Shown here: one piece after another, positions 17,900 through 58,538 of the stretch
Layout: the number at the start of each line of letters is the position of its first letter
Numbering within the stretch: position 1 is the stretch's first letter
From: an uncultured Gammaproteobacteria bacterium
GTDB taxonomy: Bacteria; Patescibacteriota; Patescibacteriia; UBA1558; 2-01-FULL-52-15
Length of the DNA stretch: 64,000 bases
Assembly (NCBI GenBank): GCA_964422585.1
Contig: CAYRBH010000005.1
Coordinates: forward strand, 3,401 to 67,400
Direction: 5' to 3'
Position numbers and translations under genes: made by a program
The notes under the pieces: model-generated
Told to the model about the DNA's origin: nothing
Database searches by the model: none
Seen by the model: only the letters and a program-made list of their open reading frames with translations

Positions 17900-17901
17900 A
17901 C

Positions 17902-23658: not shown

Positions 23659-25035
23659 ATGGATGATGCTGATCAGCCTATCAATCCAAGCGCACCGGAA
23701 CAGCCGCGAGACTCTGCTGACCGTATGGCCCAAGAAACGCGTATCCGCTTAGAGTTGCAGCGGAGGCTTTCGTATAGCGATGAAGCGCAGGTGCTGTCTG
23801 AAAAAGTAGGGAGTTCTCGGGGTAGGCATCGACTGCGGAAACTCCTCATTTTTTTGGTATTAGTCTGCGGTATTTTTATAATTGGCGCGCTGGCATTAAA
23901 TATGGCCATCGTCCCTCGTGTCATAGCTGGACTGCCGAGCTTCATTCGGGTACCGTATCAAACACTTCCTGGCTACAAGAGGACGATCAGTGGTTCAGTC
24001 GATTATTATCCGCCATTGGTGGTAAGTCCCACAAAGACAGGTATTTCAGAGTTCGATCATGGAGCGTCATTCTCGTTCATATCGAGCGCAGATGTGCTCT
24101 CGCACAAAGGGATCGAGGGTGTTCTCAGGCTTGATATCAATAAGACTCAGGCAAGCACAGCGGCAAGCGATATTGATGTGGGGTATAAGGTCTTGTTCCC
24201 GCAGAAGCAGGGGACTGGCATTTACTTTTTCTTTAACCACTGGCCTTCATACCTACAAGACTTGGGAATCGCCGGTGACAGTCGTGGTATATGGTTTGGT
24301 TATGATTCTCAAGATAAGCAAACTTCCCAGCCAGATATCAATGAACTCCTTGGTCTCCTGAATCCAGAGAGCAATCAGCAGGGCGCCCAGCATTTTATCA
24401 ATGCTCTCTGGACCTATGCTTCTGCGAAAGGCGCTTTACAATGGAAAGTGCAGCGACTTTTCTATAGCTTATCTGATGGCACCCGCGCCGCTGATATACA
24501 GGTGTCTATAGATCCTGATACATTTCCCTCAACGATCGCTGCTTTTGTGAAAGATCCTTCGTATACCGGAGATATCAAGGCCATCGGTGATTCGCCGGTT
24601 GCCGGCACCACCGTTGCCGGCCTGCTTGGATCGATACGTTCATTGACCGGCCTTATCACGGTTGGCATCACTGATCATTTTATCCATCAGGCGGTGTGGA
24701 ATTTCGATATTAATGATCCGGCTGCAGGCACCTATCGTGGCACTGTCACCTCAGCCCTTGATCTTGTACAGGCCAAGAAAGATATTGTGAAACCTCAGCA
24801 GACTAAGAGTGCGATAGATATCCTTGACTTAATCGCAACAGGAACGCCGGATCTGACTCCGGCGACTGTGGCAACCACGACCGATTCGGATGGGGATGGT
24901 CTCAGTGATAGCGATGAGATAAATAAATATCACACGGATCCGTTCGTAGCTGACACCGATCATGACGGGTTCAGCGACGGCGCTGAGGTGCGGATGGGGT
25001 ATAATCCCTTAGGACCAGGGAAGCTGAAGCAGTAA
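23659..25035 (+). CDS. N-terminally anchored surface protein with C-terminal tandem DxDxDG calcium-binding repeats (thrombospondin-type-3/dockerin-like)
   Basis: A TM helix at aa ~60-85, a large extracytoplasmic domain, and a C-terminal DSDGDGLSDSDE...DTDHDGFSDGAEV pair. Confidence 0.5.
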   Translation: MDDADQPINPSAPEQPRDSADRMAQETRIRLELQRRLSYSDEAQVLSEKVGSSRGRHRLRKLLIFLVLVCGIFIIGALALNMAIVPRVIAGLPSFIRVPYQTLPGYKRTISGSVDYYPPLVVSPTKTGISEFDHGASFSFISSADVLSHKGIEGVLRLDINKTQASTAASDIDVGYKVLFPQKQGTGIYFFFNHWPSYLQDLGIAGDSRGIWFGYDSQDKQTSQPDINELLGLLNPESNQQGAQHFINALWTYASAKGALQWKVQRLFYSLSDGTRAADIQVSIDPDTFPSTIAAFVKDPSYTGDIKAIGDSPVAGTTVAGLLGSIRSLTGLITVGITDHFIHQAVWNFDINDPAAGTYRGTVTSALDLVQAKKDIVKPQQTKSAIDILDLIATGTPDLTPATVATTTDSDGDGLSDSDEINKYHTDPFVADTDHDGFSDGAEVRMGYNPLGPGKLKQ

Positions 25036-25039
25036 GCTT

Positions 25040-25558
25040 CTAGAAACGGTACACGAAGACATTGCGCCATCGCTCATGGAATTCTTTGAGCGGTTTTTTA
25101 GTATCAAATGAAAAATTGTATGAGATGACATAGGTCCCTGGTTTCGCTTCACGAGTGAGCTTAGGTCCTATCTTTTGGTTGATGGTATCAGGCAGGCCAT
25201 AGACAAAAATGATGTCGAATGTTCCTAGAGGTGCAGCATAGAGATCTTGCAGGACTATGTTCACCGAAGCTCCGCGGTAAAATAGTTGACGAAGCTTAGC
25301 TAGAGCATAGGGGAGTGGTGAGATTTCATAACCAGTCGCCGCGAGTCTATACTTCCGCCACACATAGAATACAACCCGTCCGTAACCGAGGCCAAGATCT
25401 GCGAAGCGCATGCCTGGCTGTGGGTGTATCGATGCTAAGGCTTGTGCGACCATCGTGGTTTTGCTGGGTATCCATGGTGCGAGAGAATAGAATGCCCGTA
25501 TCAGGTAAAAAACAACAATTGCGATCACCACATAGATACCGATGACCAGGAATGCCAT
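25040..25558 (-). CDS. Membrane-anchored class I SAM-dependent methyltransferase, putative
   Basis: An N-terminal TM helix, then motif I FADLGLGYGRVV, post-I GYEISP and IIFVYG. Confidence 0.45.
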   Translation of the reverse strand: MAFLVIGIYVVIAIVVFYLIRAFYSLAPWIPSKTTMVAQALASIHPQPGMRFADLGLGYGRVVFYVWRKYRLAATGYEISPLPYALAKLRQLFYRGASVNIVLQDLYAAPLGTFDIIFVYGLPDTINQKIGPKLTREAKPGTYVISYNFSFDTKKPLKEFHERWRNVFVYRF

Positions 25559-25563
25559 AGGTA

Positions 25564-26859
25564 TCAGCGGATGTAGTTCAACGGGTTGGTCACGCGACCA
25601 TTGATCCTGATCTCGAAATGCAGGTGAGGGCCAGTAGAGCGGCCGGTCGAGCCTATCAACCCGATAGTTTGTCCACGCGTGACCGTGTCACCAGCTTTCA
25701 CAAGGATCTTCGATTGATGACCATAGAGTGTCTGTATGCCATTACCATGATTGAGAATGACATAGTTGCCATAACCGCCATTATTCCAGCCGGCGCGCTC
25801 GACGCGGCCGCTTTCAGCCGCATAGATTGGATCGCCGATGGTTTCCCCGATATCAACACCGGTATGCCGCAGGCCGAAATATTGCGTGATACGTCTGCTC
25901 AGGACCGGCCAGAGGAATTTGCCGCCAAGCTCTTGTCCTGATCCCGCTGGCGGTGGGATAAAGAAGTTCTTTATGACATTGCCGAGACTTTGCGGTGTCC
26001 GTTGTCGGACAACCACATCGGTCGGATTGATGCCGTCGGGTATGATGAGGTCTTCACCGACCTGTATGTCAGTAGCGCTCGCGAGCTTATTGCCTTCGAT
26101 GATAGCGGTTGGATCTACCTGATACTTTTTCGCTATCTCGGCAATGGTTTCTCCGGATTTCACGGTATGCGACACGCCACTCCTTGGCAGTATGGTCAGT
26201 GTCTGACCGGGTTTGATGGTGCTATTCCAAGTCAAGCTGTTTGCCCAGAGTATGGTGTTCACGCTGATCTCGAATTTTTGCGCTATCGTACCCAAGGTGT
26301 CGCCTGACTCGACCGTATAGGTCTCGTTTTTCGAGCGCCCTGTCCCAGTGCCATTCCCTGTGTCCGTGATGACCGGCGCCACTATTGGTTGATCATCCTC
26401 CGGATTATAGATCATATCCTGGTCGGTATCCGGAGCAGCCGGACCAGTGATAATATCGTCGGTCACGACGGTATCCGTATCAAGGTAGCTGACCTTGGCT
26501 GATTGTCCATTCGCCGGCAGCGGACCCTCTTGGATCAGCTGTACGGCCGTTTGGTCGTTCTGACCCATGATGCTATTCAGTGGTATGCTTGCGGCGAGCT
26601 CTTCAGCATTCAAGGTAGTGGCCCAGAGATTATGTCCGAGTGCTATGATGACAATACTGAGGATGGTTCCTTTATATAGATAACGATTGAGCCATGTCAA
26701 AATCGTATGGTTGCTGGATTGAGTTAATGACTTTACCTTTCGTTGCACTTTCAAGATTAGGAAGTAGACGCTGAGTATGCTACCGAGGAAGAATCGCTTG
26801 ATGAACTTCCGTGCACTGCGGAGCGGTGGCATCGCGCCTCGCCGCAGCTTGTTTCCCAT
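25564..26859 (-). CDS. LysM-domain M23 (LytM-type) peptidoglycan peptidase
   Basis: Two LysM motifs (YTVESGDTLGTIAQKF, HTVKSGETIAEIAKKY) and a C-terminal M23 domain (HTGVDIG...GNYVILNHGNGIQTLYGHQ...GSTGRSTGPHLHFEI). Confidence 0.88.
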   Translation of the reverse strand: MGNKLRRGAMPPLRSARKFIKRFFLGSILSVYFLILKVQRKVKSLTQSSNHTILTWLNRYLYKGTILSIVIIALGHNLWATTLNAEELAASIPLNSIMGQNDQTAVQLIQEGPLPANGQSAKVSYLDTDTVVTDDIITGPAAPDTDQDMIYNPEDDQPIVAPVITDTGNGTGTGRSKNETYTVESGDTLGTIAQKFEISVNTILWANSLTWNSTIKPGQTLTILPRSGVSHTVKSGETIAEIAKKYQVDPTAIIEGNKLASATDIQVGEDLIIPDGINPTDVVVRQRTPQSLGNVIKNFFIPPPAGSGQELGGKFLWPVLSRRITQYFGLRHTGVDIGETIGDPIYAAESGRVERAGWNNGGYGNYVILNHGNGIQTLYGHQSKILVKAGDTVTRGQTIGLIGSTGRSTGPHLHFEIRINGRVTNPLNYIR

Positions 26860-27032
26860 CCATACGAAAGCGTCGACCAGTTTAATGATCGACCACAGTG
26901 CAATGCGCTTGATTGTGAGATTCAGTTTACGAATACGGCCTTTCTTTAACTATTCATAGATACCATATTTATATGAGTTTGTAAACAGTTCTTGCGTTGA
27001 TTTTTATCAGACGCTTTGTTAGAGTAAGACCT

Positions 27033-29564
27033 ATGGCTGAAAGGAAATATCAACCGCGTGATTTCGAATCGCATTGGCAAGAGCAGTGGGAACAACAAGG
27101 CATCTACCATGCGAAAGATTTTGATACACGAAAGAAGCAATATGTTCTTGTTGAGTTTCCGTACCCTTCGGGCGAAGGTCTGCATGTAGGGCATTGTCTT
27201 TCCTACATTGCGCAGGACATCGTTGCTCGGTATCTGCGTATGAAAGGTAATAATGTGTTGTATCCGATTGGTTGGGATGCGTTCGGTTTGCCGGCTGAAA
27301 ATTTTGCGATCAAGCATAAAGTAAAGCCGCAAGACTCAACCAAAAAAAATATCGCGAACTTCAAGCGACAGATCCAATCAATGGGTATTTCATTTGATTG
27401 GTCGCGTGAACTTAATACCACAGATCCAAAATACTATAGATGGACACAGTGGATTTTTTTGCAACTATTCAAAGCAGGTCTTGCCGAGAAAAAAGAAATG
27501 CCGATTAACTGGTGCCCGAAAGATAAGATTGGTTTGGCTTTTGAGGAAGTCGTTAACGGCTGCTGTGAACGTTGCGGCGCGCCGGTCGAACGAAGAAATA
27601 TCAAACAATGGATCTTGAAGATTACGAAGTACGCTGATCGATTGATCGATGATCTCAAAACAGTTAATTTTTTGCCGGCTATTGCGCAGCAGCAGATCAA
27701 CTGGATCGGGAGGAGCGAGGGTGCTGAAATTGATTTTGCAGTTTCAGGCTCAAAAGAGAAAATAACAGTTTTTACCACCCGACCAGACACGCTTTTTGGC
27801 GCTACCTATATGGTCCTTTCGCCAGAGCATGAGTTTATTGAAAAAAATAAGAATTCGATCACGAACTTCAAAGAAGTTTCAAAGTATATTTCTGTTGCAA
27901 AGAATAAATCTGAACGTGAAAGGCAGGAAAATAGAGAAAAAACAGGCGTTGCATTAAAAGGTATCAAGGCAATCAATCCTGCGAATAAGAAAGAAATCCC
28001 GATCTGGGTTGCTGATTATGTTTTAAGTGGATATGGCACTGGTGCGATCATGGCAGTGCCTGCGCATGATTTACGAGATAATGAATTTGCTCACAAATTT
28101 AGAATTCATCCAATCGTGCCAGTGATTATTCCTGAGAGCATCGATAACCTTGGGCACACTCGAGCAGTTATTAAAGATAGCGGCCAAATCGGTATAATCG
28201 GCGATGTTTTGACAGTCTGGCAGGGCCAAAGCACCTCGGAGGCATTTCAAATTTTAGTTGGAAGGATTAAGTCTGGAACTCAGTCCTACTTTGGCGAAGG
28301 AAGATTAATTAATTCAGGAAAGTTTGATGGCTTAGCTTCAGAAGAGGCAAAACAAAAAATCACCAAGGCTGTTGGTGGAGAAATGAAAGTGCAATACAAG
28401 CTCCGCGATTGGATTTTTTCACGACAACATTATTGGGGTGAGCCAATCCCTATTATTCATTGTGAAACATGTGGTGAAGTTGCAGTCCCTGAAAAAGACT
28501 TACCAGTAGTTTTACCAGATGTTGAGTACTATGAGCCAACTGATACTGGCGAGTCGCCATTAGCGAAAATCGAGACTTGGGTCAATGTACAATGTCCAAA
28601 TTGTCACGGCGATGCAAAGCGTGAAACAGATACCATGCCAAACTGGGCCGGCAGCTCTTGGTATTTTATGCGCTATACTGATCCGCATAATGACAAAGCA
28701 TTTGCTGATAAGAAAAAATTGAAGTACTGGATGCCCGTGGATCTGTATAATGGAGGAGCAGAGCATACAACATTGCATGTTTTGTATTCGCGGTTTTGGT
28801 ATAAATTTTTGTATGATCAGGGCTATGTGCCAACGTCAGAACCGTATCAGGTCAGAGTGCAACACGGCATGATCCTAGCGCCTGATGGTCAGAAAATGTC
28901 AAAGTCGCGCGGTAATGTTATCAATCCTGATGAGATAATCGAAAAGCACGGAGCAGATATTTTCCGCCTGTATATGATGTTTATGGGAGAGTATGATCAG
29001 TACAAATCGTGGAATGATAAAAATTTGCAAGGTGTGGCGCGATTCATGAGGCGACTCTATGAGTATGTGACGCAAGTGACTATCGCAAAGTCGTCTGTTG
29101 CTGCTCGGACAGCAGTACATCGCGCTATTCGGGATATAGGCGCGGATCTCGAGCGCAGATCGTTCAACACAGCCGTGAGCAAGCTCATGATCTGCCTCAA
29201 CTCACTAGAAAAAGAATCATCCATCGACCGCAAAGACTTGAGCGCTCTAGTGCGTAGCACTGCTCCATTCGCGCCGCATCTCACGGAGGAGCTTTGGCAC
29301 AGTAAACTCAGCGAAAAAACCAGCATACACAGGTCTCAGTGGCCAGACTTTGATGCCTCGGCAATCAATGAAGAAGGAGTTACTCTCGGTGTGCAGGTTA
29401 ACGGTAAGGTTCGCGCGGACATAGTAGTTACCACGGATATGAGCGAGGCTGATGTACGCACTGCCGTACTTGCTCTGGAGTCGATACAGAAATATGTGCC
29501 GAATCCAGCCGCCATCAAAAAGTTCATCTATGTGAAAGGCAGGATCATCAGCATTGTCGTATAG
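27033..29564 (+). CDS. leuS: Leucyl-tRNA synthetase
   Basis: HIGH (PYPSGEGLHVGH) and KMSKSRGN motifs plus LeuS-specific blocks (WDAFGLPAEN, DWIFSRQHYWGEPIP). Start placed at the Met giving the canonical MAERKYQP N-terminus. Confidence 0.95.
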   Translation: MAERKYQPRDFESHWQEQWEQQGIYHAKDFDTRKKQYVLVEFPYPSGEGLHVGHCLSYIAQDIVARYLRMKGNNVLYPIGWDAFGLPAENFAIKHKVKPQDSTKKNIANFKRQIQSMGISFDWSRELNTTDPKYYRWTQWIFLQLFKAGLAEKKEMPINWCPKDKIGLAFEEVVNGCCERCGAPVERRNIKQWILKITKYADRLIDDLKTVNFLPAIAQQQINWIGRSEGAEIDFAVSGSKEKITVFTTRPDTLFGATYMVLSPEHEFIEKNKNSITNFKEVSKYISVAKNKSERERQENREKTGVALKGIKAINPANKKEIPIWVADYVLSGYGTGAIMAVPAHDLRDNEFAHKFRIHPIVPVIIPESIDNLGHTRAVIKDSGQIGIIGDVLTVWQGQSTSEAFQILVGRIKSGTQSYFGEGRLINSGKFDGLASEEAKQKITKAVGGEMKVQYKLRDWIFSRQHYWGEPIPIIHCETCGEVAVPEKDLPVVLPDVEYYEPTDTGESPLAKIETWVNVQCPNCHGDAKRETDTMPNWAGSSWYFMRYTDPHNDKAFADKKKLKYWMPVDLYNGGAEHTTLHVLYSRFWYKFLYDQGYVPTSEPYQVRVQHGMILAPDGQKMSKSRGNVINPDEIIEKHGADIFRLYMMFMGEYDQYKSWNDKNLQGVARFMRRLYEYVTQVTIAKSSVAARTAVHRAIRDIGADLERRSFNTAVSKLMICLNSLEKESSIDRKDLSALVRSTAPFAPHLTEELWHSKLSEKTSIHRSQWPDFDASAINEEGVTLGVQVNGKVRADIVVTTDMSEADVRTAVLALESIQKYVPNPAAIKKFIYVKGRIISIVV

Positions 29565-29581
29565 AACCTTGTGTCGGTATC

Positions 29582-30211
29582 GTGTATACTGTAAGCATGA
29601 AGATCATCAAGTATGCGCCAGAAAAGAAAGCCTCTATCCTTGCCGAAGCATTGGTAGTCCTGTTGTCAGGCGGGACGGTCGTCTATCCGACCGAGACAGC
29701 TTACGGACTGGGGGCTGATTTTTTTTCGCCGCGTGCCTATCGATCGATTTTTTCCATCAAGTATCGTGATGCGAAGAAGGCCTTGCCCGTGATTGTCCCT
29801 GACCTCGAATATGCGACGACGCTCGTTGAATTCAGTCCACAGGCATCGAAGCTTGCCGCTGAGTATTGGCCCGGACCTTTGACGCTCGTATTACCCTTCC
29901 GCTATGGGAAGGAGTATGAGTATCACACTGATCCGTATCTAGCACTTCGAGTGAGCTCCCATCCCATTGCTGCGAGCCTTGCTCAGGCTTTCGGTAAGCC
30001 ATTGATAGCGACATCGGCCAATGCGAGCGGCAAAGCAGTATGCTATAGTGCTGATGACGTCATCCGGCAATTCGAAAGCAGCCGTTCACAACCTGATCTG
30101 GTCATCGATGCGGGTATGCTGCCCGAAGCCCCGCCCTCAACGATAGTAAAGGTAGACCGCGACTCTCTGGAAGTAATACGTAATGGTTCGATACTACTCA
30201 ACAAAAAATAA
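29582..30211 (+). CDS. tsaC: L-threonylcarbamoyladenylate synthase (YrdC/Sua5 family)
   Basis: YrdC fold signature VVYPTETAYGLGAD, K..LP.IV, PGPLTLVL and SANASG. Confidence 0.85.
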   Translation: MYTVSMKIIKYAPEKKASILAEALVVLLSGGTVVYPTETAYGLGADFFSPRAYRSIFSIKYRDAKKALPVIVPDLEYATTLVEFSPQASKLAAEYWPGPLTLVLPFRYGKEYEYHTDPYLALRVSSHPIAASLAQAFGKPLIATSANASGKAVCYSADDVIRQFESSRSQPDLVIDAGMLPEAPPSTIVKVDRDSLEVIRNGSILLNKK

Positions 30212-31390
30212 ATGCTCAAAAAGACCACAGATCGTTTCTTGAATATCTTCCCGCATCATATGCGACAGCAGATACGTGAGCTGTATGCGGCAACCTCGAT
30301 CTTGGATTTCGCGGTAGCGATGATCCAGATCTTCGAGCCGATCTATTTGTATACTTTAGGCTATACACTGCAGCAGATTATTCTGTTCTTCCTCATCGTC
30401 TATGGTGTTTATTTTTTTATCATGCCGCTCGGTGCTCGTGTCGCGAGGCGGGTTGGATATGAACATGCTATCGCCTATAGCACGGTCGTGTTCATACTGT
30501 ATTATTTCATTTTTTATAATATCGCGTTCGCTCCATTTTTATTCGTTCCCGCAGCCCTGCTGTATGCCATCCAGAAAATGCTGTACTGGCCGGCATATCA
30601 TGCTGATTTCGCACGTTTTGCGGATGCGGGTCAAGATGCTCGGGAGATTAGCTTTCTGACAGTCACCGCGGCAGTCGTTGGAGTGATCGCCCCATTAGCA
30701 TCAGGTTTTATACTTGAGTATTGGGGATTTGGCGCGCTTTTTACCTTTGTTTCATTGATCTTCCTCATATCCAATGTCCCCTTGCTAATCACGAAAGAGA
30801 TATTCGAGCCAGGTACTTTCGAGTATTTCAGCGTGTATAAGGATCTTTTTTCGAAGGAGCGCAGAAGGAGCTTTTTCGCCTATGTAGGGTTCGGAGAAGA
30901 ATTGATAGTGCTTGTCGTATGGCCTGTTTTCATCGCGACCATTGTCGTTGATCTTTTGAATATTGGTATTTTGACTGCGCTGACGACCCTGATCAGTGTT
31001 ATCATTACCGTTTATATCGGCAAGTCTTCAGATGTCGGTGACAAGCGTAGCATCTTAAAATTCGGCGCTATCATATATTCGATTGCCTGGTTTATGCGAC
31101 TCATCGTTCATGCGACAGTGGGCATCTTCTTCACTGACACGCTATCACGCATTTCGAAGAATATTGTTACCGTACCTCAGACAGCGCTTACCTATGAACA
31201 GGCGAAGCAACAGAATGTGATGCATACGGTTGTGTTCTTCGAAGCAAGTTTAGTCGTTGGCAAGCTGATAGCGATGTTGATCATATATGGTGCGCTCTTC
31301 ATCTTGCCCTCATTCTTGTCCGGCGCGATGATATACCAATCGATCTTCGTTCTTGCCGGCCTCATGTCGCTCTTGTATATGCTACAGTAA
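30212..31390 (+). CDS. MFS-type transporter, putative
   Basis: About 10-12 TM helices and MPLGARVARRVG, resembling MFS motif A between TM2 and TM3. Confidence 0.5.
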   Translation: MLKKTTDRFLNIFPHHMRQQIRELYAATSILDFAVAMIQIFEPIYLYTLGYTLQQIILFFLIVYGVYFFIMPLGARVARRVGYEHAIAYSTVVFILYYFIFYNIAFAPFLFVPAALLYAIQKMLYWPAYHADFARFADAGQDAREISFLTVTAAVVGVIAPLASGFILEYWGFGALFTFVSLIFLISNVPLLITKEIFEPGTFEYFSVYKDLFSKERRRSFFAYVGFGEELIVLVVWPVFIATIVVDLLNIGILTALTTLISVIITVYIGKSSDVGDKRSILKFGAIIYSIAWFMRLIVHATVGIFFTDTLSRISKNIVTVPQTALTYEQAKQQNVMHTVVFFEASLVVGKLIAMLIIYGALFILPSFLSGAMIYQSIFVLAGLMSLLYMLQ

Positions 31391-32223
31391 TGTCGAAAGC
31401 TACGGTCCAGTATGTGATGCAGAAGTGGAACATTCGTCCGGATACGGAGCAGGGTCAGCATTTTTTAGTCGATGACACGATACTGCAGCGTATCATCACT
31501 GCATCTCAGCTCAACAAGAAACAACATGTGCTTGAAGTAGGCCCGGGCATCGGTACTCTCACCTCGCTGCTTGCTGAAACCGCTGAACGAGTCGCTGCTG
31601 TTGAGATCGACCCTCAGTTCAAGCCGTTGCTCGAAGCTTTCGTTGCAGTTAATACGAATGTGCAACTGCTCTTCGCGGATATTTTGAAGGTACCTTTTGA
31701 AACAGTACGCGCCGCTCTGGATTTGAGATCGGGGAGTGGGTATAAGGTTATTGCGAATATCCCTTACTATCTCACGTCCCGATTTTTTGCGACGGTCCTG
31801 AAGTATCAAGAGCTTCCGACGATGATCGTAGTCTTGATACAGAAAGAAGTAGCTGAGCGTATCGTCGCGCAGCCTGGTGATCATTCGAAGTTATCATTGA
31901 GCATTCAGCTCTATGGCGCCCCGCGCATCGCTTTTCAGGTGCCACGAACAGCTTTCAGTCCTATACCGGAGGTCGATTCAGCAGTCTTGGTCATAGAAGA
32001 TATCCACCAATGGAGTTATGCGGTGCCAGAACGTAAAGTATGGCAGCTCATTACCTTCGGTTTTAGCTCACGCCGGAAGAAATTGGTGAATAACCTTATG
32101 GCAGGTATGCATATCTCAAGGGATGCTGCCTTAGATATACTGAAAAAGGCAGGTATTGAGCCAAATATACGAGCTGAAGACATGTCTATTGAGAGTTGGC
32201 TGCGTCTCGCTGAGCATGCATAA
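31390..32223 (+). CDS. rsmA: 16S rRNA (adenine1518/1519-N6)-dimethyltransferase
   Basis: QHFLVD..., VLEVGPGIGTLT and the NIPY motif region. The start overlaps the previous stop by 1 nt. Confidence 0.92.
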   Translation: MSKATVQYVMQKWNIRPDTEQGQHFLVDDTILQRIITASQLNKKQHVLEVGPGIGTLTSLLAETAERVAAVEIDPQFKPLLEAFVAVNTNVQLLFADILKVPFETVRAALDLRSGSGYKVIANIPYYLTSRFFATVLKYQELPTMIVVLIQKEVAERIVAQPGDHSKLSLSIQLYGAPRIAFQVPRTAFSPIPEVDSAVLVIEDIHQWSYAVPERKVWQLITFGFSSRRKKLVNNLMAGMHISRDAALDILKKAGIEPNIRAEDMSIESWLRLAEHA

Positions 32224-32348
32224 GAGATAGCTCTTGACGCTCTTCAAAGCACTTGGTGGTTGCTTATAGAATATGCTATAATAATCCCATTGTTGGTAGC
32301 CAGGTATTGGCTAATAAGAAATAAAATCACTACCATTTTACACTAACT

Positions 32349-33101
32349 ATGCCGCAGAGTAAGAACAGTGGACCGGGGCATGGTATTGGGTTCCGTTCGC
32401 AGCCGCGAGGTGTACAAGCGTTATTGGTTGCGGTTGCTTTCTTCGGAGCAGCTTCACTCGGCTATGGAGCATATGCCATTCAAGATAAATTGGTCAGCCC
32501 TTTCAAAGCAAGTGTCATAACATCCGATAAGGTTTTGAATGAAATACTGCCCACGGCTGATCAGGGCGCGCTCGCGTCAAAGACCAAAGATACTGATGGC
32601 GACGGATTGAGCGATTATGACGAAGTGGCTATCTATAATACGAGTCCATATCTCGCTGATACTGATGGCGATGGTATTCCTGACGGGGTTGAAGTGAAGA
32701 ACGGTACTGATCCGAACTGCCCCCAGGGCCAAGTATGCAATGGTTTGCGGCTCGTAACACCTGATACGAAGATCTCTGATCTGTTCCCGCAGTTCTCTAC
32801 CTCGAATGTTACGTTGAAAGATAAGACGGTTCAGGAATTTAGGCAGATACTGCTGGCTCAGGGATTCGATAAAGCTAAACTTGATCAGATCAGTGATAAT
32901 ACCTTGCTCATCATACTGCAGGAGAGCTTGAAGGCTCAGGATGAGGCGCAAGGCACCAGCACCCCGACCACCACGGATGCGATCACGGTAGGAGATTATG
33001 ATCAGCTTCGCTTGCTTCTCGTCGATATGGGCGTGCCTCATGATGAGGTGTATAGCATGAGCAATCAAGATATACAGAATATGCTGAAGACATTCAAGTA
33101 G
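32349..33101 (+). CDS. N-terminally anchored protein with tandem DxDxDG calcium-binding repeats, immediately upstream of the giant protein
   Basis: A TM helix (LLVAVAFFGAASLGYGAYA), then DTDGDGLSDYDE...DTDGDGIPDGVEV. This is the same motif pair as in 23659..25035. Confidence 0.5.
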   Translation: MPQSKNSGPGHGIGFRSQPRGVQALLVAVAFFGAASLGYGAYAIQDKLVSPFKASVITSDKVLNEILPTADQGALASKTKDTDGDGLSDYDEVAIYNTSPYLADTDGDGIPDGVEVKNGTDPNCPQGQVCNGLRLVTPDTKISDLFPQFSTSNVTLKDKTVQEFRQILLAQGFDKAKLDQISDNTLLIILQESLKAQDEAQGTSTPTTTDAITVGDYDQLRLLLVDMGVPHDEVYSMSNQDIQNMLKTFK

Positions 33102-33114
33102 GACCAGAATATCC

Positions 33115-36100
33115 ATGCAGGCACCAAAAACAAACCGCAAACTATTCTTACGCCTTGTCGCCACCGTTTTTTGTTTGAGTATCTTTTTGATAGCAGCACC
33201 GCTCAAGCCGGTGCATGCGCAGCTCTCTGTTTTTGATCCTCAGCAGTTCGTGGAGACGATCAAGGAGTATATCGCGAAATTGAAAGATATCTCTTGGAGG
33301 CAAGCGGCGACCGTAGCTTTGGATAAAGCAGCTTCGAGCTTCATCAATAAACTAGCTCAAGACGCTGGCAACTACTTAGCTACCGGGGGCAAGGGGCAGA
33401 GCAGCCTGGTCCGCCGCGAGTCATTCGGCTCTATTTTAAGGAAGGATGGCGAGGCGGCATTGGGCAATTTCGTCCAAGATCTCTCATCAGAAACACAGCT
33501 TGATAAGCTTGGCTTAAACTTATGTAATCCGTCGGCGCAGCTCAAAGCAAATATTAGCTTGCAGCTTTTGGACGCTGGCCAGCCAGTGCCACTCGGGGCT
33601 GCCGGCTGTAATATCCGGGATATTCAGGCCAATTGGCAGCGATTCGCTCAGAATGCCGGCGTCGTCAATGTGAATGTGACCACCGGCAGTCAGCTGGGTA
33701 TCAGTGGCGGCGCAATTTATGGAGCACCGACAGCGGGGACTTGTCAGACCTCGAAAGGCCAATGTGTGCTTTCAGGATCGAACGCTTCATATGCCGGCTA
33801 CTGCGAGCAGCTTTCTTCATCAAGCCAGCAGCTGCAGACCTACTGTAATACGAAAGCCGATTGCGCAGGAGGAGCGAACTGTATCATCGTAACGGGAGAT
33901 TGTTCTAGTAATGCCGATTGTAAAGGAGGCTCGACATGTAATCTCGTCAGCGGAGGGTCATGCTTCACTGATAGTGATTGTTCTGGTGTAGGAGCGAGAT
34001 GTGTCGGCGCCACCAGCGCATCAAGTGGTGTGCCTTGGCTCGACATCACTAAAGATTTCTCACCAGCTGAAAAACTAAAGACTCTGAATGACCTCTTCTC
34101 GCCTCAACAGAGTGATCTCGGTGCTTATACATTGCTTTCCACCAAAGAAGCTGAGCTGCAGGCAGCAGAAGAAAAATATAAGACCCTCGACCTCTCGACC
34201 TGTAATGCTTACAAAGATGTTGGTTCGAAGATCACTGATGACTATGTCCATCAGAACTGTGATGAGATAAAGGCGTTAGCAGCGAAAACCGCTCCACCAT
34301 CGACAGCCGAGGAAACGCAGGCATTGAAGAGTCAGGGCGATAATGGCTTTTGGCTCAATGCGGCCAAGATCTTCGGCCGTTCACTCATCTCAGGCTTGCT
34401 GAAGAAATATATCAAGGCAGGTTCTTTCTCGCTGGCGCAACTCGGACAGCAAACCGATCTCAGTCAGGTGCGGGAGAATATCGTACAGCAGCTTCGCGGC
34501 GGAGTCACCTCACCGTTGAATGCTTTACAAGTGACGAATACATTGTCTACCGACCAGAAGCCGTCATTGGATAAAGTCGATAATTTCGATTATATCGCTA
34601 CCTTCTCACAGTGTCCTGATGACCGTACGCTTGTTGAGCTTGATAACTGTACTCTCGATGATAACTTTGCTTCTGCGATCCGTGACAAGAAAACTGTCGG
34701 AGATGCATTGGCTGATGGCACACTGCGGGGCGATTTGCCGCTTATCTCCGACCTCAATACAAGCCTTGATGGCGATCCATTCTGTGTAAGGAGTGGTTAT
34801 TGCCATAGCAATATCGTGCGTCTGCGTAAGTATCGCGTGTTGCCAGTCGGTTGGGAGATCGCTGCGTCCCTGAGTCCGATAGACGCGCCAATCACGCTGC
34901 AGGATGCGGTCGACTGTTTCGATAATAATGGTAAGTGCAAGCTTGATCCAGCCTCGAATATCTACTATCACTTGATCGACCCGAATTGGGTATTGAAGGC
35001 GCCGGAAACGCAATGTAAGGCAATGGTCTATGGTCCGAAGCCTCTCAGTACTGAAGTAGCTGAACGTCAGCAGTATTGTGCGGATGGTGTTTCTTGTCTG
35101 GCGGAGGATGATAACGGCACCTGTACTGGCGGCTATGGTTACTGCACGAAAGAGAGCAATATCTGGCGCTTCAATGGTGAGCAGTGCCCAATGCAGTATG
35201 CCAGCTGCACGACGTATACGCGCACCAGCGATAAGCAGGTATTTTCCTATTTGAGCAATTCGGTCGACACCTGTGACGCTTCGGAGAATGGCTGTCAGTG
35301 GTATTCGAAGAGCCAGGATAATGTCGGCACGGTGGATCAGCCGCAGTATGTATGGAATCCACATGACCGCATTTATTTCAATAAGAATGTCGCGACCTGC
35401 GAAGCTGATCAGGTCGGCTGTAATGAGTATGTCTCATTGCTCACGCCTGGCGTCAACTTAGTCACGAACGGCGACTTCGATTATTTCACGGCTTCTTCGT
35501 CGACGAATTTTTCAGATCCGAATTGGATGAACGATACTCTGCCGGACACCTTCGATGGCTGGCAGGGCACGGCTAATGCGTTCACGACTCGCGATAATGC
35601 ATACTATGGATCTGTCGGCTTGCATTTACAGGGTGGCGGCAGGCTTTCGACGAATGTGATAACCGGCATTTTGGCTGACAAGACCTACATACTATCGTGG
35701 TATGCGAAGTCGGCGAGCGGTAATGACTGCACGACCGACGTATCTATCGCTTCCCCGGGTTCTCCGGCCCAGAGTACGACCGTCACCTATACGAAAGATT
35801 GGAAGCGCTTCGAGCTCTCGAAGAGCTTCGATGTGAATGCTCAGGATACCCAAGCGACCATCTCGTTCTCAGGCAACTGTGCAGCCCCGACGGCGAGCGA
35901 TATGTATATTGATGGAGTGAAGTTCGAGCTGAATAATCAATCGTCCGGTTTCACGCAGTATGCTGAGAATGGGAAGACTTATCTCAAGTCACAGAACCAG
36001 TGTACGAAAGATGATGTCGGATGTGATATGTATACGGCGACTGATAGCGGGATCAAGGTACCAGGTAAGATCGATTCGAACGACATTTGTCCGGCTGAGT

Positions 36101-39100
36101 GTGTGGGGTATCAGAATTATCTCGAGCTCGCAAGCCAATACGATGTGCTTGAACGGTTGCCACTGGCTCCGCCAGCGCCTCGGTCTGTTAATTTCATAGC
36201 ATCGACGGCTGCCGCATGCCCGGCGAACGAAGTTGGCTGCGAAGAGTTTACCAATGAGCAGGAAGTGGCTCAGGGCGGCGAAGGCAAGCATTACTTCAGC
36301 TATGTCAGGCAATGCGTCGAGGATGCTCTTGGCAGCACCTACTATACCCTCGAAGGCAGTGATACTGCTGGATATCAAGTGAAGACCTGGAGACTCTTGG
36401 CATCGGACCTTCCTTCTGGTCAGCCTTGTACCAATGTCGATATCGGAGCCAAGAACTGTATCGATGGCAGCACGACGCCAGCGACTTGCAGCGCGGCCGA
36501 CCTGGGGACGAACTTGGATTGTCGCGAGTTCTTCGATATCAATGGCAACCCGCATTATGTGCTGCAAAGCAGGGTCATCATTTCAAGCACTGATTGTCAG
36601 GCATATCGCAGAACCTCTACGGGGACGACATTCTACGCGCTCGGTAGTGAGAGCAGGGCCTGCTCCGCTCAGAGCAATAATTGTCGCGAATACCGCGGTA
36701 ACCAATCAGGCAATCTACGAACCGTTTTCTCGGATTACTTCGAGCAAGGCACTATCGATGCTTGGGACTCTACGCTCTCATCACTTTCGACCGAAGCAGT
36801 AAGTACCGGCGGCCACTCTATCGTTAATCGTAATCCATCGGATGTGCTGCAGAGTACCTTATCACGGAATGCGAAGAGTTATCCGATCGATGCTGGCCGC
36901 GAGATATATATGGACTTCTGGATGAAGAATACTGGTCCGGTGCAGGTGACGATGAAGGCTGACGCGAGCACGTATTTCGCGACGACCACCATGCAAGTGG
37001 CAAGTGACTGGCAGCAGTATACAGTAGGTCCTGTGTATTTGGATACTGCGATCACGGCGACGCCATCGATACAACTGACTCCGGTGGGGGCCAATCCGAT
37101 ACCAGCGGTATATTTTGACAATATCGACTTCAAGGAATCACAGACCAATATCTTCCTTATTAAGGATAGCTGGAAGACGCCGCTTTCCTGCGATCAGCCG
37201 ATACCTGGCGCAATGCTGGGCTGTCAGGAATACACCAATAAAGCAGGTGTCTCCTATGACCTACGTTCATTCACGAAGCTGTGCTCGACCGATGTGATTG
37301 GCTGCCAGGCTTTCATCAATACGCAGAATTCGACTAATCCATTCCAGAAGATCTATAACGCGGATGATCCTTCGCAGGTCATTGTCCCGGCCGATACCAT
37401 CAGCTACCTGGTTTACAATGAACAGAACCGCTGCTTCAGTCAGAGCAAGGGTTGCAGCGCGCTTGGTTCTCCGCAGCTGAATCTCAATCTGCCTGAGGCT
37501 GATCCGAAATACATCGATGGCTATAAAGTAAAGACATTAATCAATAATCCAGACACCTACGACAATACGCTCTGTACCGATAAGGGATTGTTCTGCGAAG
37601 AGTATACCAATAGCGACTCTCAGACGGTATATTTCAAGAACCCTCGCGATCGCGTCTGCGTCTATAAGGAAAATCAGAATGTGAACGGTAAGATCGTTAC
37701 GGGTTGGTTCCAAAAGAAGAGCATCGATGGCGGCGGGACGCCGATTGGCTGTTCTGATGACGGCGTGTTGCCGATCGAAGATAAAGATTTCCAGCTTTCG
37801 AACAATTTGGATTTCAACTATCAAGGCTGGGTTGGCGAGTGTTCGGCGCAGTATGATCAGTGCACGGAATTCAGGGATCCGCTTGATACCCAGGGCGATA
37901 ATGCGTTGAAAAACGCCGACTTCAGTCTGATAAACCCCGCCAATGGGCAGCCATTGAATTGGAATGACCATATTTGGAGCTGGCCATATCAGAGTACGCC
38001 GCCGGCCAACTGGTTACAGACCAACCCTGGTCTCCGCTATGGTATATCGACCTTCGAACCGTATGGCTCTATGTCATTCGGGCAGGACTTCTCGAATGTC
38101 GATGGCAGCGATGTGTTCGCCTATAGCGTTGATGTGAATGTGCAGAAGATGACTCATGGTATGAACTCTGGCGTCAGCGCGAACCTATCATGCCATTTCG
38201 ATTCACCTAAGGATATAGATTTCTGCAGTACCTCAACGTGGACAGATCCAGCCAGCACTTGTACCACTACAGCTGATTGTAAGGCTGGCGGCGCTTGTAC
38301 AGCGGGGCAGTGCAAGTATCCGACGGGCAACTATGATTATAGTAAGCCTTGTGGGCCGAATAATTCCTGTTCCGGAAACAGTATGTGCTATACCTTCTCT
38401 TGGAATGCCTGCGAAGGACCGGGTCCAGATGGTACTTTCAATAATCGCGCCGACGATGACTTCACTAATATGCAATGCGCTGCATCGACTCCGACTGATG
38501 ACGCTGCCTGCGCAGCGGTCCCTGGCCGAGCAGGGTATAAGTGCTTGAGCTGGCCATATGATAAGACCAAGGATCGCGATCTGGTCTTGGACTATGTCAC
38601 GAATGCCAATCCATATCTCTACAATCAATGGCAGACACTGCGCAGGGTCGTTGACCTTGGAGCGGATAGTGGACAACGGAACGTGTATGAGTGTACGTTC
38701 TGGCTTAGCGCGACGCAGAATCAATATGACCAAAACAACACGAATAGCAGTGGCGGCGCCTGTGCCCCAGCCGCAACCTATGCCTATGACTTGGCATGTG
38801 GAGATACCTACTGTACGAGACCTGGGCCTGACGGCAAGGTCGGCACTGCTGACGATATACCGACCACCGTTAAATGCTCTACGAGTACGAACCCGGCTCT
38901 ACCGACGGTCATTGGTGATGCTGGTTGTAAAGCGGCTCCTACGGGCGCACGACCTGGTACTGGTGACCCTGCGGCGGTCTGCGGGAGCACTGCTGCCGAG
39001 CCCGATACATTCTGGTGGACGAATCCTTTGTTCAAGAAGGCCAAGAGTTACTACTACTTGAATAATGATGAGATAGATACGAAGACCTGCAACGGTCAGG

Positions 39101-51502: not shown

Positions 51503-51504
51503 CA

Positions 51505-54543: not shown

Positions 54544-54554
54544 ATACTACTCGT

Positions 54555-55145: not shown

Positions 55146-55154
55146 TAACTACCT

Positions 55155-55736: not shown

Positions 55737-55737
55737 T

Positions 55738-57617: not shown

Positions 57618-57619
57618 GT

Positions 57620-58525: not shown

Positions 58526-58538
58526 TTTTGAATTAGAA

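What the first reader, a model, noticed from the sequence alone, without database searches (positions are those of the whole stretch)
23659..33101. Two membrane-anchored proteins share a tandem DxDxDG calcium-loop pair (TSP3/dockerin-like); one sits directly upstream of the giant protein
Both proteins are N-terminally anchored and contain the same bipartite motif.
- 23659..25035: DSDGDGLSDSDE-...-DTDHDGFSDGAEV.
- 32349..33101: DTDGDGLSDYDE-...-DTDGDGIPDGVEV.

The two loops are separated by about 13-15 residues, and each is followed by a short G..NP segment. This resembles the duplicated Ca-binding segments of dockerins or thrombospondin type-3 repeats. It could mediate Ca-dependent docking of surface components, for example to the giant protein.
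Basis: seen in the sequence. Interest (0 to 1): 0.55.

Follow-up and report, generated by a model that had tools for sequence, protein, structure and literature searches.

The report
Calcium-loop partner of a giant protein
Both membrane proteins carry an ordinary, already catalogued bacterial calcium-binding module (two thrombospondin-type-3 repeats). The smaller one belongs to a family of ultra-small (Patescibacteria) bacteria that is always encoded directly in front of a giant secreted protein, next to their poorly understood type IV secretion genes.

Summary
ORF A (23659..25035) and ORF B (32349..33101) each have one N-terminal membrane helix and two DxDxDGxxDxxE loops 23 residues apart. 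The window holds four such loops against none in 500 shuffles.

The motif is not new. Both proteins pass Pfam PF18884 (bacterial TSP3 repeat). The closest solved structure is the calcium-switch loop pair of Staphylococcus Bap. Nothing supports a dockerin.

A and B share only this module (57% identity, different codons).
- In A it is an optional tail on a lineage-restricted protein; a 52%-identical relative lacks it.
- In B it is the invariant core of a Patescibacteria-wide family: membrane helix, exactly two repeats, a Cys-x5-Cys cap, and one or two helical hairpins.

The useful result is the gene pairing.
- A giant-protein homologue follows B in 68 of 68 genomes (median gap 12 nt).
- B precedes the giant in 72 of 72 metagenome loci chosen by the giant alone.
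- All 60 complete giants have a signal peptide, no anchor of their own and no calcium loops.
- A VirB6-like gene follows, and VirB3, TrsD and VirB4 lie 5 kb away.

I infer that B is the membrane-anchored, calcium-stabilised partner of this secreted giant. Binding is untested. KsgA is also syntenic in 85% of loci, which weakens the synteny argument.

The parts
23659..25035 (+). ORF A, 458 aa. Cytoplasmic N-terminal tail of about 56 aa, one membrane helix, an ectodomain of about 300 aa of unknown fold, and a C-terminal TSP3 pair.
   Evidence: ORF list; hydropathy. Only two full-length relatives: 57% and 52% identity. The AF2 model is poor, pLDDT 45.
23827..23934 (+). Membrane helix of A (residues 57-92).
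   Evidence: Kyte-Doolittle window maximum 3.16.
24883..25020 (+). TSP3_bac repeat pair of A (two 23-residue units, no cysteine cap).
   Evidence: Pfam PF18884, 48.8 bits, 2 stretches; motif scan. The module is absent from homologue P0123, whose gene ends at a stop codon inside its contig.
32274..32282 (+). TGCTATAAT (extended -10-like) in the 125-nt KsgA-B spacer. Possible start of the B-giant transcription unit.
   Evidence: Read directly in the sequence. The consensus scan found only a weaker site at 32243-32272. Not evidence of function.
32349..33101 (+). ORF B, 250 aa. Signal-anchor helix, two TSP3 repeats, a Cys-x5-Cys cap, a Ser/Thr-rich linker and two helical hairpin motifs.
   Evidence: 1412 homologues, named sources all Patescibacteria.
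32409..32480 (+). Membrane helix of B (residues 21-44). No signal-peptidase site is conserved across the family.
   Evidence: Hydropathy; AF2 helix 20-49 with pLDDT 93-96; alignment A1 shows no conserved AxA after the helix.
32589..32738 (+). TSP3_bac repeat pair of B plus the NCPxGxxC cap (C124, C130). This is the invariant core of the family.
   Evidence: Pfam 57.3 bits. Invariant in 35/35 sequences: D81 D83 D85 D89 E92 D104 D106 D108 D112 E115 G119 D121 P122 C124 C130. pLDDT 80-94. Foldseek to Bap 7c7r/7c7u: rmsd 1.1-1.4 A, 40-45% identity.
32820..33098 (+). Two copies of a helical hairpin motif (consensus LRQILxxxGxDxxxLDxISDxxLL), found only in the B family.
   Evidence: AF2 helices 161-200 and 217-249, pLDDT 88-95. 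HMMs of the two copies recognise each other and hit only B ORFs among 88 loci. phmmer against 1.8 billion representatives finds 10 proteins: mostly small B-like proteins, plus two long ones matched through the Thr-rich linker.
33115..42966 (+). Giant secreted Cys-rich protein, 3283 aa (155 Cys). Signal peptide ending VHA|Q, no membrane anchor, conserved core about aa 320-1600.
   Evidence: Weak CBM_4_9 match below cut-off. Homologues follow B in 68/68 loci.
42969..45527 (+). Polytopic membrane protein, 852 aa, VirB6-like (sub-threshold), with a hydrophilic extension of about 530 aa. Starts 2 nt after the giant's stop codon.
   Evidence: Pfam TrbL/VirB6 E 1.6e-4, 21.9 bits, below the 25.9 cut-off. 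NCBIfam CD3337/EF1877 mobilome membrane protein E 1.5e-3. Several hydrophobic segments within the first 320 aa. Homologues lie downstream of the giants.
45572..46867 (+). Last gene of the same-strand run, 431 aa, no family match.
50186..59651 (+). Context: type IV secretion cluster. PrgI/VirB3-like, TrsD-like, VirB4-like ATPase, DsbA-like, two T4SS pilins.
   Evidence: Pfam PrgI, TraG P-loop, Thioredoxin_4/DSBA, T4SS_pilin. NCBIfam TrsD E 2e-9, below cut-off.

Best explanation
Both proteins carry a canonical pair of bacterial thrombospondin-type-3 repeats (Pfam PF18884). This is a mobile extracytoplasmic module in which each 12-residue acidic loop (D1, D3, D5, G6, D9, E12) is expected to hold Ca2+, so the segment should be folded and stiff only when calcium is bound.

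The two proteins are otherwise unrelated.
- In A the pair is an optional C-terminal tail on a lineage-restricted ectodomain of unknown function.
- In B the pair, capped by an invariant Cys-x5-Cys loop, is the core of a small bitopic membrane protein (N-terminus inside, C-terminus outside).

The B family is found across Patescibacteria and is always encoded immediately upstream of a giant, disulphide-rich secreted protein. A VirB6-like membrane protein follows, and the VirB3/TrsD/VirB4/pilin genes lie nearby. The giant has a signal peptide that looks cleavable, no anchor of its own and no calcium loops.

I therefore infer that B is its dedicated membrane-proximal partner. B would hold, or help assemble, the giant at the cell surface through a calcium-rigidified stalk and B-specific helical hairpins. 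This would resemble the way the TSP3-containing TraB partners the cysteine-rich receptor TraA in Myxococcus.

Shown here: module identity, architecture, family conservation and the obligate gene pairing. Inferred: calcium binding, topology, physical contact with the giant and a role in the secretion system.
For: Module identity.
- PF18884 scores 48.8 and 57.3 bits against a cut-off of 25, two repeats each.
- The NCBIfam local matches fall in the thrombospondin-3-type proteins CglD and MtsD.
- The closest solved structure is the Bap B-domain (7c7r/7c7u): 40-45% identity over 44-48 columns, rmsd 1.1-1.4 A, with the sequence alignments. Those Bap loops (729-741 and 752-764, also 23 residues apart) are an experimentally shown calcium switch (PMC7785521).

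The module is mobile. Nearly all of A's 111 hits cover only 5-24% of the query. They carry PF18884 next to OmpA, M23, binary-toxin, Ig-like and other domains. A's homologue P0123 lacks the module.

The B family.
- 1412 homologues.
- 35/35 aligned members have exactly two repeats, and all calcium-ligand positions and both cysteines are invariant.
- The period is 23 residues in 43/43 loci that have two strict motifs.

The pairing.
- A giant homologue lies directly downstream of B in 68/68 species-level genomes with at least 3 kb of downstream sequence.
- The median gap is 12 nt, 42 of 48 gaps are 60 nt or less, and several overlap.
- In the reverse test, with loci chosen by a giant-protein profile only, 72/72 have a B ORF directly upstream on the same strand.

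The giants. 60/60 complete copies have an N-terminal signal sequence ending AxA|Q, no C-terminal helix, no LPXTG and 2.8-4.9% Cys. 0/48 carry a TSP3 motif.

Secretion-system context. A VirB6-like gene is the next gene or follows a small ORF. PrgI, TrsD, VirB4, DsbA and pilins are in the window.

Precedent. TraA (Cys-rich stalk) and TraB (TSP3 repeats plus an anchor domain) are encoded in one operon and form 1:1 complexes (PMC12045341).
Against:
- Gene order here is conserved even for an unrelated housekeeping gene. KsgA sits directly upstream of B in 85-86% of loci, so synteny is weaker evidence than the 100% figures suggest.
- In TraB the TSP3 repeats are a linker, not the TraA-binding surface. 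The analogy therefore does not show that the calcium loops do the docking.
- The VirB6 assignment is below the curated cut-offs in both libraries, and the VirB4 cluster is a separate transcription unit 5 kb away.
- The giant could instead be held by the VirB6-like protein's large hydrophilic domain, by the pilins, or be released.
- Calcium binding is inferred from sequence only.
- Nothing is learned about A's ectodomain (pLDDT 45).
Confidence: 0.55

Rival explanations
1. Generic calcium-stiffened spacer, with no specific partner. The TSP3 pair only rigidifies or extends a surface-exposed segment. B is an independent envelope protein whose position next to the giant reflects the frozen gene order of this chromosomal region.
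For: KsgA, which has no plausible link to the giant, is also directly upstream of B in 85-86% of loci. TSP3_bac occurs in very many unrelated architectures. In TraB and OmpA-type proteins the repeats are linkers.
Against: The pairing is 100% in both directions (68/68 and 72/72), against 85% for KsgA and 6-79% for other neighbours. The B-giant gaps are short or overlapping (median 12 nt), whereas the KsgA-B spacer is 125 nt here. The repeat number is fixed at two, and the ligand and cysteine positions are invariant across sequences down to 28% identity. A spacer would tolerate more variation.
Confidence: 0.22
2. Calcium sensor or switch. As in Staphylococcus Bap, the loop pair changes conformation with external Ca2+ and thereby gates assembly or activity of the giant protein or the secretion apparatus.
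For: The nearest solved relative is the Bap loop pair with the same 23-residue period. Mutating its loops abolishes the calcium response.
Against: There is no evidence that the affinity lies in an environmentally variable range. Freshwater and groundwater habitats usually supply enough Ca2+ to keep such sites filled (my own knowledge, not tested). This reading is compatible with, not exclusive of, the anchor model.
Confidence: 0.12
3. Dockerin-type module that plugs into a cohesin-like domain of the giant protein.
For: Two calcium loops in tandem, each followed by a short predicted helix (H89-95, H112-117). One distant giant homologue (L008) carries a weak Dockerin_1 hit.
Against: - No Dockerin_1 hit in A or B, and no cohesin hit in the giant, at E<=1.
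- The period is 23 residues, not about 32.
- BLASTP against a canonical dockerin gives E=23.
- Foldseek finds no dockerin.
- The weak dockerin hit in L008 is on the giant, not on B.
Confidence: 0.03
4. Cell-wall or S-layer tether. The acidic calcium loops bridge B (and A) to anionic wall polymers or an S-layer, and so position membrane proteins within the envelope.
For: TSP3 repeats commonly sit beside peptidoglycan-binding OmpA domains. A sits in an envelope-related neighbourhood, with a polytopic membrane protein upstream and a LysM-M23 peptidase next door.
Against: There is no wall-binding domain in A or B. This reading does not explain the obligate pairing of B with the giant.
Confidence: 0.08

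Closest known systems
Pfam PF18884 (TSP3_bac), bacterial thrombospondin type 3 repeat, e.g. in OmpA-family proteins (PDB 5wtl), Myxococcus CglD and MtsD
   Same: Same repeat: DxDxDGxxDxxE loops chained every 22-23 residues. Scores are above the curated cut-off for both proteins. There are local matches to CglD and MtsD and to the OmpA TSP3 structure 5wtl.
   Different: Here there are exactly two repeats. They sit on small single-pass membrane proteins of a monoderm lineage, not on outer-membrane or lipoprotein scaffolds. In B the pair ends in its own invariant Cys-x5-Cys cap and is followed by family-specific helical hairpins.
Staphylococcus aureus Bap region B, EF-hand-like loops 2 and 3 (PDB 7c7r, 7c7u)
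   Same: Closest solved structure and sequence: two DxDxDG loops 23 residues apart. One Bap unit, DTDGDGKNDGDEVVNYKTSPLVG, is 14/23 identical to B's first repeat. The calcium response of these loops has been shown experimentally (PMC7785521).
   Different: In Bap the loops are embedded in a large folded domain of an LPXTG-type adhesin and control amyloid formation. Here they form a free-standing module near the membrane.
Myxococcus xanthus TraA/TraB outer-membrane-exchange pair
   Same: An operon pair made of a cysteine-rich, disulphide-stiffened surface protein and a smaller partner that carries TSP3 repeats and an anchoring domain. The two form 1:1 complexes at cell-cell contacts (PMC12045341). 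B and the giant have the same division of labour on paper.
   Different: There is no sequence homology outside the TSP3 repeats. TraB is a beta-barrel plus an OmpA domain in a diderm; B is a single-pass protein in a monoderm. TraA is about 700 aa with a lipid tag; the giant is 2000-3300 aa with no anchor. This is an analogy, not membership.
Patescibacteria type IV secretion system (monoderm MPF-FATA-like; Quinonero-Coronel et al. 2025, Wang et al. 2023)
   Same: The window has the described components: PrgI/VirB3, TrsD, VirB4, VirB6-like, VirB2-like pilins, and KsgA nearby.
   Different: The survey mentions no TSP3, calcium or giant protein and reports that no adhesins were detected. The B-giant pair is not among the listed components in the papers I could search.
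Type I dockerin (Pfam PF00404)
   Same: A duplicated calcium loop followed by a helix; an extracellular protein-docking role was proposed.
   Different: No profile hit, a different spacing (23 against about 32 residues), no sequence or fold match, and no cohesin partner.

Membership tests
Pfam PF18884 TSP3_bac (bacterial TSP3 repeat) | Whole-protein score above the curated gathering cut-off (25 bits). | tested here: met
   A 48.8 bits, B 57.3 bits, two stretches each.
Pfam PF18884 TSP3_bac (bacterial TSP3 repeat) | Acidic loop with ligand positions D1, D3, D5, G6, D9, E12, repeated head to tail every 22-23 residues. | tested here: met
   All four loops fit D.D.DG..D..E. The period is 23 residues in A and B and in 43/43 B-family loci with two strict motifs. 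The ligand columns are invariant in 35 sequences.
Pfam PF18884 TSP3_bac (bacterial TSP3 repeat) | Actual Ca2+ binding. | not testable with these tools
   Inferred from homology to the Bap loops and to the OmpA TSP3 structure 5wtl.
Eukaryotic thrombospondin type 3 repeat (Pfam TSP_3) | Profile match; cysteine-containing repeats (DxDxDGxxDxxDNCP...) stapled by disulphides. | tested here: not met
   No TSP_3 hit at E<=1, and no thrombospondin or COMP chain among PDB sequence hits at E<=10. Only B's cap (GTDPNCPxGxxC) recalls the NCP motif. A has no cysteines in the module.
Dockerin (Pfam PF00404) | Profile match; two loop-helix segments about 32 residues apart. | tested here: not met
Dockerin (Pfam PF00404) | A cohesin partner domain in the proposed binding protein. 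| tested here: not met
   The giant protein has no cohesin hit at E<=1; the only match is a sub-threshold CBM_4_9.
Canonical EF-hand (helix-loop-helix) | A 12-residue loop flanked by an entering and an exiting helix, in pairs. | tested here: inconclusive
   The loops fit the EF positions, and sub-threshold PDB hits to calmodulin and polcalcin appear (E 0.04-1). AF2 predicts only short exiting helices and no entering helix.
Component of the Patescibacteria type IV secretion system | Encoded with recognised T4SS genes (VirB4, VirB3, VirB6, pilins) across genomes. | tested here: inconclusive
   B and the giant are followed by a VirB6-like gene in the window and in 28 of 51 loci whose 10-kb flank reaches far enough. 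That gene is below the cut-off in both libraries. VirB3/TrsD/VirB4 lie 5 kb away on a separate unit. Pilin and DsbA genes are near B in several other loci.
Component of the Patescibacteria type IV secretion system | Required for secretion-system function. | not testable with these tools
   Tn-seq exists only for a Saccharibacterium (PMC10633639). I could not establish whether that genome has the B-giant pair.
B family (defined here) | Signal-anchor helix, two TSP3 repeats, a Cys-x5-Cys cap, at least one LRQIL...ISD hairpin, and a position directly upstream of the giant. | tested here: met
   ORF B has all five features. ORF A has only the first two and is not a member.

The most novel reading that the evidence does not exclude
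The B-giant-VirB6-like trio is the missing host-contact module of the Patescibacteria type IV secretion system, for which no adhesin has been found. On this reading the giant disulphide-rich protein is the surface or tip structure that touches the host cell. B is its obligatory membrane tether, folded only when calcium is bound and working like a monoderm counterpart of TraB to the giant's TraA. The system could then be switched off by calcium chelation or by mutating four aspartates.
Probability: 0.25. Interest if true: 0.75.

Novelty: new variant of a known kind. Interest (0 to 1): 0.45.

Why it matters
The calcium-loop motif itself is ordinary and already in Pfam.

What is new, as far as the literature I could search shows, is the pairing. 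A small two-repeat TSP3 membrane protein is the invariant upstream partner of a giant secreted protein across Patescibacteria, in an operon with a VirB6-like gene.

- Its role is described as 'completely unknown' (PMC11665869).
- A dedicated survey found no adhesin for it (PMC12102498).

A conserved giant surface protein with a small, mutable, calcium-dependent partner gives a concrete and testable candidate for how these cells hold on to, or act on, their hosts.

Tried and rejected
- **Dockerin/cohesin reading:** rejected.
- **Special kinship or recent duplication between A's and B's modules:** rejected. They are 57% identical at both protein and DNA level, and only 9 of 26 conserved residues share a codon.
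- **Structure of A:** the alignment has only 3 sequences and pLDDT is 45, so it is unusable for fold search.
- **Homologue search with the giant's first 1000 residues:** returned nothing at E<=1e-10. A wider search for B-giant fusion proteins could therefore not be done. Within the fetched loci no giant carries a TSP3 motif.
- **phmmer of B's C-terminal 101 residues against 1.8 billion representatives:** only 10 hits, mostly small B-like proteins or low-complexity matches. The hairpin domain has no known relative.
- **PDB profile search of the B family:** only sub-threshold matches for the hairpins, to designed helical repeats and the PrsA N-terminal domain.
- **PDB sequence search for the VirB6-like protein:** nothing.
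- **Promoter/terminator scan around B:** not above shuffle expectation.
- **Literature:** no paper links thrombospondin repeats with Patescibacteria or giant proteins with their secretion system.

Full report
**1. The observation**

Each has one strongly hydrophobic N-terminal segment: A residues 57-92 and B residues 21-44. Each has two DxDxDGxxDxxE loops:
- A at nt 24883 and 24952;
- B at nt 32589 and 32658.

In both proteins the loops start exactly 69 nt, or 23 residues, apart.

These four are the only DxDxDG matches in all six reading frames of the 64-kb window. Shuffling residues or codons gives a mean of 0.3 DxDxDG matches and no extended match in 500 trials.

There are two small inaccuracies. 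The spacer is 11 residues between 12-residue loops, not 13-15. The G-x-[ND]-P segment follows only the second loop of each pair.

**2. What the motif is**

It is a catalogued domain. Both proteins pass the curated cut-off of Pfam PF18884, 'Bacterial TSP3 repeat': A scores 48.8 bits and B 57.3 bits against a cut-off of 25, with two repeats each. NCBIfam gives only local, sub-threshold matches to the thrombospondin-3-type Myxococcus surface proteins CglD and MtsD.

The AlphaFold2 model of B was built on 35 family members. It has mean pLDDT 75, and pLDDT 80-94 over the repeat pair. Its best Foldseek match in the PDB is the B-domain of Staphylococcus Bap (7c7r, 7c7u): 44-48 columns, 40-45% identity, rmsd 1.1-1.4 A. 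The next match is the binary-toxin component CDTb.

Sequence searches of the PDB with either module find the same Bap segment, QDYDKDGLLDRYERQLSLSDAENEDTDGDGKNDGDEVVNYKTSPLVG, and the TSP3 repeats of an OmpA-family protein, 5wtl. In Bap these two loops (residues 729-741 and 752-764, also 23 residues apart) are the site through which calcium controls the protein; mutating loop positions 1, 3 and 12 abolishes the response (PMC7785521).

A calcium-binding function is thus well grounded by homology, though I could not test it directly.

The dockerin alternative fails every test I could run:
- no Dockerin_1 hit at E<=1;
- wrong spacing;
- BLASTP E=23 against a canonical dockerin, whose sequence I supplied from memory;
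- no dockerin among the fold matches;
- no cohesin hit in the giant protein.

**3. A and B share only the module**

Outside the 46-residue pair they do not align; tblastn of A against B-type loci matches only A residues 395-455. The two pairs are 26/46 identical in protein and 78/138 in DNA. Only 9 of the 26 conserved residues use the same codon. B's first repeat is as close to Bap (14/23) as the two pairs are to each other. The resemblance is to the family consensus, not to a recent duplication.

A search with A finds only two full-length relatives (57% and 52% identity). Nearly all of the other 108 hits cover just 5-24% of A. They carry PF18884 next to OmpA, peptidase M23, binary-toxin calcium domains, Ig-like domains and others, in bacteria and archaea.

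The 52% relative (P0123) ends at a stop codon inside its contig and has no TSP3 tail. In A the module is therefore an optional appendage on a lineage-restricted ectodomain. That ectodomain's fold I could not obtain (pLDDT 45 with three sequences).

**4. B is a widespread family with a fixed design**

The search with B returned 1412 proteins. Wherever a source names them they are Patescibacteria: Komeili-, Buchanan-, Falkow-, Kerfeld-, Uhr- and Magasanikbacteria, Paceibacter and others.

An alignment of 35 members down to 28% identity shows:
- an N-terminal helix with no conserved signal-peptidase site;
- an invariant proline just after it;
- exactly two TSP3 repeats in which every ligand position is invariant (D81 D83 D85 D89 E92; D104 D106 D108 D112 E115);
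- an invariant G-T-D-P-N-C-P-x-G-x-x-C cap (C124, C130);
- a Ser/Thr-rich linker;
- one or two copies of a helical hairpin with consensus LRQILxxxGxDxxxLDxISDxxLL.

AF2 models the helix (20-49) and both hairpins with pLDDT 88-96.

HMMs of the two hairpins recognise each other. Among all ORFs of 88 loci they hit only B proteins. A phmmer scan of 1.8 billion representatives with the C-terminal 101 residues finds only 10 proteins. Most are small B-like proteins, and two long ones match only through the Thr-rich linker. The hairpin is therefore a family-specific element with no known relative.

A DsbA-like gene lies in the neighbouring secretion cluster, and DsbD- and thioredoxin-like genes lie elsewhere in the window. 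This fits an oxidised, extracytoplasmic Cys pair.

**5. The pairing with the giant protein**

B ends 13 nt before a 3283-aa ORF (33115..42966), whose stop codon is followed 2 nt later by an 852-aa polytopic membrane protein.

Six contig look-ups of B homologues at 32-69% identity all showed the same order. KsgA comes first, then B, then a protein of 2784-3341 aa. Then, directly or after one or two small ORFs, comes a protein of 830-1380 aa. tblastn confirmed that these large proteins and the downstream membrane proteins are homologous to those of the window.

I then ran two systematic tests.

*Forward test.* 80 species-level genomes were chosen by similarity to B. In all 68 with at least 3 kb of downstream sequence, a giant homologue lies directly downstream. 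The B-stop to giant-start gap has a median of 12 nt, 42 of 48 gaps are 60 nt or less, and several overlap.

*Reverse test.* 80 metagenome loci were chosen only by a profile of the giant's residues 500-790. In all 72 where the giant's 5' end and at least 900 nt of upstream sequence are present, a B-family ORF sits directly upstream on the same strand (E 1e-36 to 1e-72). 67 of them also match the hairpin model. Some of these loci are near-duplicates, so the number of independent lineages is lower.

**6. What the giant looks like**

All 60 complete copies have an N-terminal signal sequence ending in an AxA|Q-type site. None has a C-terminal membrane helix or an LPXTG motif. They are 2.8-4.9% cysteine. 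The conserved core is roughly residues 320-1600.

None of 48 giants examined carries a TSP3 motif. The window's giant has only a sub-threshold CBM_4_9 match. The giant thus appears to be exported with a signal peptide that looks cleavable and has no evident anchor of its own. The calcium module is always supplied in trans by B.

**7. Link to type IV secretion**

The 852-aa protein after the giant has several hydrophobic segments within its first 320 residues and two independent weak matches:
- Pfam TrbL/VirB6, E 1.6e-4, 21.9 bits against a cut-off of 25.9;
- NCBIfam CD3337/EF1877 mobilome membrane protein, E 1.5e-3.

Five kb downstream, after EF-P, SSB and S6 on the other strand, lie a PrgI/VirB3-like gene, a TrsD-like gene, a VirB4-like ATPase, a DsbA-like gene and two T4SS pilins. 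In other genomes the pilin and DsbA genes sit just upstream of KsgA-B.

This matches the published description of the Patescibacteria system, including the frequent presence of KsgA near virB4 (PMC12102498). That survey does not mention TSP3, calcium or a giant protein, and it states that no adhesins were detected.

The system is essential in Southlakia epibionticum (PMC10633639), and its role is called 'completely unknown' (PMC11665869).

**8. A control that tempers the synteny argument**

KsgA, a ribosomal RNA methyltransferase, is directly upstream of B in 60/71 and 54/63 loci, or 85-86%. Gene order in this region is therefore conserved even without any plausible functional link.

B-giant is tighter: 100% in both directions, with short or overlapping junctions, against a 125-nt KsgA-B spacer here that contains a TGCTATAAT element. 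Other neighbours drop to 6-79%. Even so, the pairing alone does not prove physical interaction.

**9. Most likely mechanism**

*Shown.* The modules are canonical TSP3_bac pairs. B is a conserved small single-pass protein whose most constrained part is the loop pair with its Cys cap. B and the giant are an obligate gene pair in a secretion-system neighbourhood. The giant has a signal peptide but no anchor.

*Inferred.* B sits N-in/C-out. Its loop pair binds Ca2+ and forms a short rigid element a few nanometres above the membrane, stapled by the C124-C130 disulphide. Through that element, the hairpins or both, B holds the giant at the cell surface or helps assemble it.

The best functional precedent is Myxococcus TraA/TraB. 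There a cysteine-rich surface receptor and a TSP3-containing anchoring partner are encoded in one operon and form 1:1 complexes (PMC12045341). In TraB, however, the TSP3 repeats are a linker rather than the binding surface.

My probability estimates:
- about 0.95 that the modules are genuine TSP3-type calcium sites;
- about 0.7 that B functions together with the giant;
- about 0.35 that the calcium module itself makes the contact.

For A I can only say that it displays the same module at the far end of an unknown ectodomain. A conserved polytopic membrane protein lies directly upstream on the same strand. A methyltransferase gene and a LysM-M23 peptidase gene lie downstream on the opposite strand.

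**10. Novelty and verdict**

At the level at which it was reported, a shared calcium-loop pair, the finding is an instance of a known Pfam family and is ordinary.

The follow-up adds something I could not find in the searchable literature. A two-repeat TSP3 membrane protein is the invariant companion of a giant secreted protein, next to a VirB6-like gene, across Patescibacteria.

I rate it a new variant of a known kind, of moderate interest. Its value lies mainly in offering a small, mutable handle on a large and unexplained surface system.

Noticed in passing
window 57620..59651: Two tandem T4SS-pilin paralogues share a 300-nt block that is 100% identical (57689-57988 = 58608-58907). The proteins are identical across the pilin core and diverge in their Cys-rich C-terminal parts. 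This is a constant core with variable tips, possibly maintained by gene conversion.
   Followed up: partly
window 50186..59651: A type IV secretion cluster of the monoderm type: PrgI/VirB3-like (51505..51966), TrsD-like (51956..52636, sub-threshold), VirB4-like ATPase (52636..54543), several small membrane proteins, a DsbA-like gene (56967..57617) and the two pilins. No relaxase or coupling protein was seen among the ORFs I scanned.
   Followed up: partly
window 33115..42966 and 60 complete homologues in loci L003-L169: The giant proteins all have signal peptides ending AxA|Q, no C-terminal anchor and no LPXTG, and are 2.8-4.9% cysteine. Only residues of about 320-1600 are conserved across lineages; the N-terminal 300 and C-terminal 1700 residues vary. 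Their fold and function remain unknown.
   Followed up: partly
window 31390..32223 and loci L009-L170: KsgA is directly upstream of the B gene in 85-86% of loci across Patescibacteria. That is unusually rigid gene order for a housekeeping gene beside a surface-protein operon.
   Followed up: yes
L001 4203..7208; L008 2211..5594; window 26997..29564: Leucyl-tRNA synthetases of related genomes carry an inserted Ham1p-like (1001 aa) or NUDIX (1127 aa) domain. The window's enzyme (855 aa) has neither.
   Followed up: no
loci L009, L012-L015 and many others: Many third-party MAG records titled 'uncultured Gammaproteobacteria bacterium' hold loci with Patescibacteria-type gene content. The title looks like a placeholder or mislabel.
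   Followed up: no
protein P0004: One source names a 202-aa B-family homologue (75% identical) 'CRISPR/Cas system-associated protein endoribonuclease Cas2'. This appears to be a misannotation.
   Followed up: no
window 15325..20505: Three Mur-ligase-like genes lie in a row. One (17902..20505, minus strand) is 867 aa, with an N-terminal extension of about 560 aa that has no family match.
   Followed up: no
window 32577..33206 (-): A 209-aa ORF runs antisense across the B gene and the start of the giant gene. It is almost certainly spurious, given the strong conservation of the + strand frame.
   Followed up: no
L008 10839..20159: One distant giant homologue (3106 aa) carries a weak precomputed Dockerin_1 hit. 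The window's giant has no such loop.
   Followed up: partly
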